64,000 bases of DNA from Escherichia coli (GTDB taxonomy: Bacteria > Pseudomonadota > Gammaproteobacteria > Enterobacterales > Enterobacteriaceae), in the NCBI RefSeq assembly GCF_003334815.1, contig NZ_QOWO01000003.1; one strand, given 5' to 3'. Numbering within the stretch: position 1 is the stretch's first letter; the number at the start of each line of letters is the position of its first letter. Below the pieces are notes generated by a model. That model worked only from the letters and a program-made list of their open reading frames with translations, had not been told where the DNA came from and made no database searches. Shown piece after piece: positions 43,328-43,714 of this stretch. The position numbers were made by a program, and so were the translations under genes.

Positions 43328-43714
43328 ATGCGTAAAAGCCTGTTAGCTATTCTTGCAGTCTCCTCGTTGGTATTCAGTTCGGCGTCGTTTGCCGCTGATC
43401 TTGAAGACAATATGGAAACCCTCAACGACACTTTAAAAGTGGTCGAAAAAGCCGATAACGCGGCGCAAGTCAAAGACGCGTTAACGAAGATGCGCGCCGC
43501 AGCGCTGGATGCGCAAAAAGCAACGCCGCCGAAGCTCGAAGATAAATCACCGGACAGCCCGGAAATGAAAGACTTCCGTCACGGTTTCGATATTCTGGTT
43601 GGTCAGATTGACGACGCGCTGAAGCTGGCAAATGAAGGTAAAGTAAAAGAAGCGCAGGCTGCCGCAGAGCAACTGAAAACGACCCGCAACGCCTATCACC
43701 AGAAGTATCGTTAA
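43328..43714 (+). CDS. cybC: soluble cytochrome b562 precursor (apparently full length)
   Basis: 128-aa ORF: signal peptide [22 protein letters not shown] followed by [106 protein letters not shown], recognised as cytochrome b562. Confidence 0.9.

What the first reader, a model, noticed from the sequence alone, without database searches (positions are those of the whole stretch)
43328..43714. cybC (cytochrome b562) appears intact
The ORF encodes a complete 128-aa precursor with a 22-aa signal peptide and the full mature four-helix-bundle sequence. As far as I recall, the K-12 MG1655 copy is annotated as a truncated pseudogene, while the protein was originally characterised from other E. coli lineages. 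That would make this strain one that can make the periplasmic cytochrome.
Basis: partly seen in the sequence, partly recalled or inferred. Interest (0 to 1): 0.3.

Follow-up and report, generated by a model that had tools for sequence, protein, structure and literature searches.

The report
Intact cytochrome b562 gene (cybC)
This is an ordinary, complete copy of the E. coli gene for the small periplasmic haem protein cytochrome b562; the laboratory strain K-12 is the odd one out because a 26-base deletion removed its start, which has been known since the 1990s.

Summary
Window 43328-43714 (+) is a complete 128-codon ORF, with a 22-residue signal peptide and a 106-residue mature cytochrome b562. 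It is 126/128 identical to the native B-strain precursor solved as PDB 9tmp_A; the differences are T35 for N and V39 for I. Both haem ligands are kept (Met29 and His124 of the precursor, which are Met7 and His102 of the mature protein). It matches Pfam PF07361 and the NCBIfam equivalog NF011632 over their full length. The recollection about K-12 is also correct. MG1655 b4236 is annotated as a pseudogene because of one 26-bp deletion (window 43321-43346) that removes part of the ribosome-binding site, the ATG and codons 1-6. This does not distinguish the strain. The K-12 deletion junction occurs in only 355 of 5,426 complete E. coli genomes, and all 60 sampled are K-12 laboratory derivatives. 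Apart from about 30 genomes with other lesions, the rest carry the undeleted start. The K-12 defect is already in the literature (Trower 1993, as cited in PMC13041623; PMC3349551). Verdict: real feature, correctly interpreted, already known, low interest. Seen in passing: a polymorphic ERIC-like palindrome upstream of cybC, an IS10 end in yjgN, and an accessory transport/CoA-transferase island.

The parts
43328..43714 (+). cybC coding sequence, 128 codons plus TAA stop; precursor of soluble cytochrome b562
   Evidence: ORF list; 126/128 identical to PDB 9tmp_A; identical to the XD35 CDS, which is annotated WP_001232255.1, the same accession as in ML35; Pfam and NCBIfam full-length matches
43328..43393 (+). 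Signal peptide, residues 1-22 ([22 protein letters not shown]): basic n-region MRK, hydrophobic core, S-F-A before the cleavage site
   Evidence: Mature PDB chains 256b/1apc start at query residue 23; identical to the B-strain precursor; GRAVY +1.35. Actual cleavage and export are inferred, not tested.
43394..43711 (+). Mature cytochrome b562, 106 residues, calculated apoprotein mass 11,753 Da. Haem axial ligands are Met7 (codon 43412-43414) and His102 (codon 43697-43699).
   Evidence: Alignment to solved chains; codons read from the sequence; mass. The ligand identities come from established knowledge of the 256B structure.
43315..43325 (+). Shine-Dalgarno region AAGGAAGTGAG; the GGA lies 8 nt before the ATG
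   Evidence: Read from the sequence; invariant in XD35, UPEC_U013 and AST20. Function inferred from position and sequence.
43321..43346 (+). The 26 bp (GTGAGCAATGCGTAAAAGCCTGTTAG) present here and deleted in K-12: 7 nt of leader plus the first 19 nt of the CDS
   Evidence: Alignment with NC_000913; no microhomology, so the boundaries are unambiguous; the junction probe hits 355 of 5,426 genomes
43723..43754 (.). 14-bp G+C-rich hairpin in the 44-bp spacer between the convergent genes cybC and nrdG; a likely bidirectional terminator or RNA-stabilising stem
   Evidence: Fold: -23.3 kcal/mol (z = -6.8) on the + strand and -19.5 kcal/mol (z = -4.1) on the - strand. It lacks a T-run, so the terminator scan did not call it. 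Function inferred.
43169..43308 (.). Variable segment of the pmbA-cybC spacer containing a roughly 108-bp imperfect palindrome (stem 43192-43299). ERIC/IRU-like repeat, present or absent between strains. It is not part of the gene but lies directly upstream of its ribosome-binding site.
   Evidence: Fold -57.1 kcal/mol, z = -7.5; 128 bp shorter in XD35 and Ec-2844; related copies elsewhere in the genome; aligns to the ERIC primer core

Best explanation
Window 43328-43714 is the normal, functional cybC gene of E. coli. It is translated from an ATG preceded by an AAGGAAG Shine-Dalgarno sequence into a 128-residue precursor. The 22-residue Sec-type signal peptide directs export and is cleaved after Ala22. 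The 106-residue mature protein folds in the periplasm into the well-known four-helix bundle, which binds one non-covalent haem b through Met7 and His102 and can carry one electron. Its physiological redox partner is still unknown. The gene stands alone between pmbA (same strand) and the convergent nrdG, and it is followed by a strong hairpin. The K-12 copy differs by a lineage-specific 26-bp deletion that removes the start codon, part of the ribosome-binding site and the charged N-terminus of the signal peptide, which is why MG1655 annotates it as a pseudogene. What is shown here: the ORF is intact, it is near-identical to solved proteins, the K-12 lesion is defined, and its distribution is counted. 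What is inferred from established knowledge and cited papers: export, haem binding and expression in this particular strain.
For: ORF intact. 126/128 identity to the native B-strain precursor 9tmp_A, with identical signal peptide and haem ligands. Mature PDB chains begin at residue 23. Pfam PF07361 full length, E = 4.5e-33. NCBIfam equivalog NF011632, 190.5 bits against a cut-off of 130. Same protein as the XD35 CDS annotated WP_001232255.1, the accession also given for ML35 cybC. SD and start region invariant in four lineages. MG1655 pseudogene annotation and the 26-bp deletion. Deletion junction in 355 of 5,426 genomes, all 60 sampled being K-12 derivatives. Undeleted start in all sampled non-K-12 genomes. 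Papers: native cytochrome b562 is made in B-lineage strains and is not expressed in K strains (PMC13041623, citing Trower 1993); cybC transcript is high in REL606 relative to MG1655 (PMC3446290); the protein is seen by MALDI in clinical isolates, where T35 and V39 are the common residues (PMC6561927); cybC mRNA rises 2.2-fold at the growth transition in O157:H7 Sakai (PMC2241611).
Against: No sigma-70 consensus promoter was found anywhere in 42600-43800, so where transcription starts is not established; it may come from a weak or alternative-sigma promoter or from read-through from pmbA. Nothing in the sequence can prove expression, export or haem loading in this strain. The physiological function of the protein is unknown in any strain (PMC3349551, PMC6561927).
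Confidence: 0.95

Rival explanations
1. The gene is intact but effectively silent in this strain, for example because the ERIC-like palindrome immediately upstream blocks or destabilises transcripts entering from pmbA and no promoter of its own exists.
For: No sigma-70 consensus promoter in 42600-43800. A very stable 108-bp palindrome (-57 kcal/mol) sits between pmbA and the ribosome-binding site.
Against: The same palindrome is present in roughly 3,900 of 5,426 genomes, including O157:H7 genomes (row H177). cybC mRNA was measured in an O157:H7 strain (Sakai; PMC2241611), but I did not check whether Sakai itself carries the element. The ORF differs from K-12 mostly at synonymous sites (9 synonymous to 3 non-synonymous codons), as expected for a gene under purifying selection. 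Consensus scans miss many real promoters.
Confidence: 0.04
2. The contrast with K-12 is not real: the K-12 copy is still translated, from the ATT that NCBI's PGAP pipeline uses as a start, and yields a working 121-residue precursor.
For: PGAP annotates a 121-aa 'cytochrome b562' CDS (WP_023649327.1) in K-12 derivatives. The frame downstream of the deletion is open, and the truncated product still scores 186.4 bits on NF011632.
Against: The deletion removes the ATG, leaves only 2 nt between GGAA and the ATT, and removes the positively charged MRK n-region that Sec signal peptides normally need. The curated MG1655 record calls it a pseudogene. PMC13041623, citing Trower 1993, states that the disruption prevents expression in K strains, and the transcript is lower in MG1655 than in REL606 (PMC3446290).
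Confidence: 0.03
3. The ORF is a chance open frame or a mis-assembled sequence rather than a gene.
For: None found.
Against: Full-length profile matches, 98% identity to a solved protein, and 100% DNA identity over 787 bp to several independent complete genomes.
Confidence: 0

Closest known systems
Soluble cytochrome b562 of E. coli B lineage (native precursor in PDB 9tmp_A; mature protein in 256B/1APC/1QPU)
   Same: Same length, identical 22-residue signal peptide, same haem ligands, 126/128 identical, same locus between pmbA and nrdG.
   Different: Two conservative substitutions: T35 for N and V39 for I in the precursor (T13 and V17 of the mature protein). The calculated apoprotein mass is 11,753 Da against 11,780 Da. 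T35 and V39 are reported as the common residues outside ST131 clade C (PMC6561927).
cybC pseudogene of E. coli K-12 MG1655 (b4236)
   Same: Orthologous locus with the same flanking genes. The rest of the reading frame is open and 96.5% identical at the DNA level.
   Different: K-12 lacks 26 bp (window 43321-43346): part of the SD, the ATG and codons 1-6. It also has N35, S122 and K125 where the window has T35, A122 and Q125.
BRIL, the thermostabilised apocytochrome b562 used as a fusion partner in membrane-protein structures
   Same: Derived from the same protein. Hundreds of PDB fusion chains match the query at E of about 1e-61 or better.
   Different: BRIL is an engineered, haem-free derivative used without the signal peptide (PMC13041623). 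It says nothing about the natural function.
More diverged 'soluble cytochrome b562' in PDB 4er9_A
   Same: Collinear over all 128 residues, including the signal peptide (E = 8.5e-66).
   Different: Many substitutions, concentrated in residues 30-50 and near the C-terminus. The tool output does not give the organism.
ERIC / IRU repeats (for the upstream palindrome only)
   Same: Net indel of 128 bp against the published ERIC length of 127 bp (PMC6066780). Imperfect palindrome, intergenic, present or absent between strains, and alignable to the core defined by the two ERIC primers.
   Different: Diverged from that core, with three small indels. Only about 3 copies per genome are detectable by blastn. 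Rfam has no matching family.

Membership tests
Cytochrome b562 (Pfam PF07361; NCBIfam equivalog NF011632) | Full-length profile match above the curated threshold | tested here: met
   PF07361: E = 4.5e-33, model positions 1-102 of 102. NF011632: 190.5 bits against a cut-off of 130, profile 1-127 of 127.
Cytochrome b562 (Pfam PF07361; NCBIfam equivalog NF011632) | Axial haem ligands Met7 and His102 of the mature protein | tested here: met
   Met29 (43412-43414) and His124 (43697-43699) are present and align to the same residues in 9tmp_A. That these residues are the ligands is established knowledge from the 256B structure.
Cytochrome b562 (Pfam PF07361; NCBIfam equivalog NF011632) | Four-helix-bundle fold | tested here: met
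   Met by identity only: 104 of 106 mature residues match solved chains. No separate structure prediction was run because it would add nothing.
Cytochrome b562 (Pfam PF07361; NCBIfam equivalog NF011632) | N-terminal cleavable signal peptide, giving periplasmic location | tested here: met
   Residues 1-22 are identical to the B-strain precursor, and the mature chains start at residue 23. Export itself is not testable here.
Cytochrome b562 (Pfam PF07361; NCBIfam equivalog NF011632) | Binds haem b non-covalently and is actually produced | not testable with these tools
   Needs periplasmic spectroscopy or mass spectrometry of this strain. It has been shown for near-identical proteins in other strains (PMC13041623, PMC6561927).
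ERIC / IRU repeat (upstream element only) | Imperfect palindrome of about 127 bp in an intergenic region | tested here: met
   Net 128-bp indel relative to XD35 and Ec-2844. Hairpin of -57.1 kcal/mol, z = -7.5. The 127-bp length and palindromic nature are taken from PMC6066780.
ERIC / IRU repeat (upstream element only) | Sequence similarity to the ERIC consensus core | tested here: inconclusive
   Local alignment to the 44-nt core built from the two ERIC primers (sequences confirmed in PMC6066780) scores 31, against 16.9 +/- 3.0 for 500 shuffles, whose maximum also reached 31. It is the best match in the window but needs three indels. The full 127-bp consensus was not available.
ERIC / IRU repeat (upstream element only) | Dispersed multi-copy family in the genome | tested here: inconclusive
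   blastn finds a median of 3 places per genome, the others about 70-72% identical. That is fewer than I recall for ERIC, possibly because of divergence.

The most novel reading that the evidence does not exclude
The most novel reading not excluded concerns cybC regulation rather than the gene itself. The ERIC-like palindrome next to the ribosome-binding site is present in roughly 70% of genomes and absent in the rest. The cybC coding sequence is also two to three times more diverged from K-12 than its flanking genes. Together these could reflect strain-specific tuning of cytochrome b562 levels, or selection on this protein of unknown function. Comparing strains with and without the element could then give a handle on what the protein does.
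Probability: 0.08. Interest if true: 0.3.

Novelty: already known. Interest (0 to 1): 0.05.

Why it matters
It matters very little as a discovery. An intact cybC is the normal state of E. coli, and the K-12 defect is recorded in the curated MG1655 annotation and in papers going back to 1993. It has some practical use. It shows that this window does not come from a K-12 laboratory strain. It is also a reminder that automatic annotation (NCBI's PGAP pipeline) calls the truncated K-12 copy a normal 'cytochrome b562' CDS from an ATT start, whereas the curated record calls it a pseudogene. People expressing anti-BRIL antibody fragments should expect native cytochrome b562 from any non-K-12 host (PMC13041623). 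The real open question is what cytochrome b562 does in the cell, and this finding does not bring that closer.

Tried and rejected
(1) Rfam scan of 42900-44000 at E <= 1 found nothing, so no known RNA family explains the upstream palindrome or the downstream hairpin.

(2) Sigma-70 promoter scans of 43100-43800 and 42600-43400 found no site, so the promoter remains unassigned.

(3) A 50-bp probe across the start matched only 4,613 genomes, leaving 458 unaccounted for after subtracting the 355 K-12-type genomes. A 141-bp probe then matched all 5,426, with only 30 below 80% coverage. I therefore treat the shortfall as a short-query sensitivity artefact, not as evidence of further lesions.

(4) A 60-bp K-12 junction probe was uninformative because the tool joins the two 30-bp halves in undeleted genomes. 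It was replaced by a 30-bp probe that only the deleted allele can seed.

(5) A paper search for ERIC together with cybC gave no hits.

(6) I considered whether the K-12 frame is otherwise decayed. It is not: 9 synonymous and 3 non-synonymous codon differences and no further indel.

(7) Structure prediction and large protein-database searches were not run. With 98% identity to solved structures they could not change the verdict.

Full report
**Observation.** The window contains an ATG-initiated ORF at 43328-43714 on the + strand, encoding 128 residues with no interruption. Its product begins [22 protein letters not shown] and continues [12 protein letters not shown]...NAYHQKYR.

**Identity.** Against all PDB chains, the full-length native precursor 9tmp_A ('Soluble cytochrome b562', 128 aa) aligns 1-128 with only two differences: T35 for N and V39 for I.
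- The classical mature chains 256b/1apc/1qpu (106 aa) align to query residues 23-128, which puts the processing site after Ala22.
- The haem ligands of the mature protein, Met7 and His102 (established from the 256B structure), are present as Met29 (43412-43414) and His124 (43697-43699).
- Pfam Cytochrom_B562 matches model positions 1-102 of 102 at E = 4.5e-33.
- The NCBIfam equivalog NF011632 'cytochrome b562' scores 190.5 bits against a cut-off of 130, over profile positions 1-127 of 127.
- The protein is identical to the XD35 CDS, which is annotated WP_001232255.1, the same accession given for ML35 cybC.

**Genomic setting.** The window is E. coli chromosome. Bases 32000-56000 are 100% identical to ML35, ETEC4073, NCTC10973 and other genomes. 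Bases 19100-63817 are collinear with ML35 at 99.93% identity.
- cybC lies 182 bp downstream of pmbA on the same strand. It is convergent with nrdG, 44 bp away.
- An AAGGAAGTGAG Shine-Dalgarno region precedes the ATG. This region is invariant in four lineages examined.
- The 44-bp spacer to nrdG holds a 14-bp hairpin (-23.3 kcal/mol, z = -6.8). It folds on both strands and probably serves as a terminator or stabiliser for both genes; this is inferred.
- No sigma-70 consensus promoter was found in 42600-43800, so the transcription start is not established.

**The K-12 comparison.** NC_000913 annotates cybC (b4236, 4459488-4459855) as a pseudogene. The alignment shows a single 26-bp deletion corresponding to window 43321-43346 (GTGAGCAATGCGTAAAAGCCTGTTAG). 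It has unambiguous boundaries and no flanking microhomology.
- The deletion removes the 3' half of the Shine-Dalgarno region, the ATG and codons 1-6. This includes the MRK n-region of the signal peptide.
- The remaining 122 codons, counting the stop, are open. They differ from the window at 9 synonymous and 3 non-synonymous codons.
- NCBI's PGAP pipeline nevertheless calls a 121-aa CDS from ATT in K-12 derivatives. That product still passes the NCBIfam cut-off but lacks profile positions 1-6.
- The literature agrees with the pseudogene reading. [quoted passage not shown] PMC3446290 lists cybC among genes highly expressed in REL606 relative to MG1655.

**How unusual is an intact copy?** It is not unusual.
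- A 30-bp probe centred on the K-12 junction, which only the deleted allele can seed, hits 355 of 5,426 complete genomes. All 60 sampled are K-12 laboratory derivatives, such as MG1655, BW25113, DH5alpha, DH1, C600, J53, S17-1, MC4100 and TG1.
- A 141-bp probe across the ribosome-binding site, the ATG and the first 31 codons matches all 5,426 genomes. In the ranked sample, every non-K-12 genome matches as a single ungapped piece. Only 30 genomes fall below 80% coverage.
- One of those is an independent lesion: an ISEc22 insertion that splits cybC in NZ_OY754853.1.
- About 93% of complete genomes therefore carry the undeleted start. The K-12 state is a private mutation of one laboratory lineage.

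**Mechanism.** The gene most likely works as textbook cytochrome b562. The steps are translation of the precursor, Sec export, cleavage after Ala22, and folding into a four-helix bundle that binds one haem b through Met7 and His102 as a one-electron carrier in the periplasm.
- Shown here: gene integrity and near-identity to proteins for which all of this has been demonstrated.
- Inferred: that it happens in this strain.
- The physiological partner and role of the protein remain unknown in any strain (PMC3349551, PMC6561927). Nothing in this locus points to a partner. The gene stands alone next to pmbA and the anaerobic ribonucleotide reductase genes.

**Rivals.**
- A silent gene: no promoter was found, and a strong palindrome lies upstream. 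This is unlikely, because the same arrangement is present in roughly 3,900 of 5,426 genomes, and the substitution pattern against K-12 looks like purifying selection.
- A functional K-12 copy: this is contradicted by the nature of the deletion, the curated annotation and the cited experiments.
- A chance ORF: excluded.

**Verdict.** Interest is low.

**Seen in passing.**
1. The pmbA-cybC spacer contains an imperfect palindrome within a variable segment (about 43169-43308; -57.1 kcal/mol, z = -7.5). The spacer is 128 bp shorter in strains such as XD35 and Ec-2844, where it is only 54 bp. The element is present at 90% identity or better in 3,886 records, and the sampling puts its absence at roughly a quarter of genomes. 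Copies about 70-72% identical occur elsewhere in the genome. It aligns end to end with the ERIC primer core, with a score of 31 against 16.9 +/- 3.0 for shuffles. I read it as an ERIC/IRU-like repeat, with membership only partly tested.
2. Identity with ML35 ends at 63817. The window then runs into the outside end of IS10 (CTGATGAATCCCCTAATGATTTTGG...; Rfam RNA-OUT, 98.8 bits, at 63862-63931 on the - strand), which interrupts yjgN. Essentially no complete genome shares this junction.
3. Window 3893-13676 is an accessory island between rplI and ytfB. It encodes a TRAP transporter, an acyl-CoA:acetate/3-ketoacid CoA-transferase, an FAD-dependent oxidoreductase, an enoyl-CoA hydratase, a ketoacyl reductase, a sugar-phosphate isomerase and a TetR regulator. 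It is complete in 1,448 of 5,426 genomes, others carry a variant with an MFS transporter, and K-12-type genomes have yjfZ at this position.
4. Some genomes carry a relB/relE toxin-antitoxin pair inserted between cybC and nrdG. This window does not.
5. The cybC coding sequence is 3.5% diverged from K-12, against 0.6-1.5% for pmbA, nrdG and nrdD.

Noticed in passing
window 43169-43308 (palindrome stem 43192-43299): ERIC/IRU-like imperfect palindrome directly upstream of the cybC ribosome-binding site (-57.1 kcal/mol, z = -7.5). It is a presence/absence polymorphism: the spacer is 128 bp shorter in XD35 and Ec-2844, and the element is missing in roughly a quarter of complete E. coli genomes. It is absent from Rfam.
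   Followed up: partly
window 63818-64000: Outside end of IS10 (Rfam RNA-OUT at 63862-63931 on the - strand, 98.8 bits) interrupts yjgN. Collinearity with ML35 stops at 63817, and essentially no complete E. coli genome has the same junction, so this insertion may be specific to the source strain.
   Followed up: partly
window 3893-13676: Accessory island between rplI and ytfB: TRAP transporter, acyl-CoA:acetate/3-ketoacid CoA-transferase, FAD-dependent oxidoreductase, enoyl-CoA hydratase, ketoacyl reductase, sugar-phosphate isomerase and a TetR regulator. It is complete in 1,448 of 5,426 genomes, others have an MFS-transporter variant, and K-12-type genomes carry yjfZ at this position. The substrate is unknown.
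   Followed up: partly
L010 (NZ_AP043617.1) 880-1402; corresponds to the window spacer 43715-43758: In some E. coli genomes a relB/relE type II toxin-antitoxin pair is inserted between cybC and nrdG. It is not present in this window.
   Followed up: no
window 43347-43714 versus NC_000913: The cybC coding sequence is 3.5% diverged from K-12, while flanking pmbA, nrdG and nrdD are 0.6-1.5% diverged. The differences are mostly synonymous (9 synonymous to 3 non-synonymous codons). This could be a local recombination patch or elevated diversity at this gene.
   Followed up: partly
L006 (NZ_OY754853.1) 1-2810: An independent inactivation of cybC in another strain: an IS66-family ISEc22 element splits the gene into two annotated fragments.
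   Followed up: no
L001 (NZ_CP062239.1) 1697-2062: NCBI's PGAP pipeline annotates the truncated K-12 allele as an ordinary 121-aa 'cytochrome b562' CDS starting at ATT (WP_023649327.1), whereas the curated MG1655 record marks it as a pseudogene. This is an annotation inconsistency that users of RefSeq K-12 derivatives should know about.
   Followed up: yes
window 22143-22265, 25617-25796, 34780-34858, 41021-41098, 51275-51390, 2260-2344: Known RNA elements at Rfam gathering score: ES239 sRNA, STnc450 and ES036, two naRNA4 (REP-derived) copies, the mgtA Mg2+ leader and the rpsF leader. All are expected for this chromosomal region.
   Followed up: no
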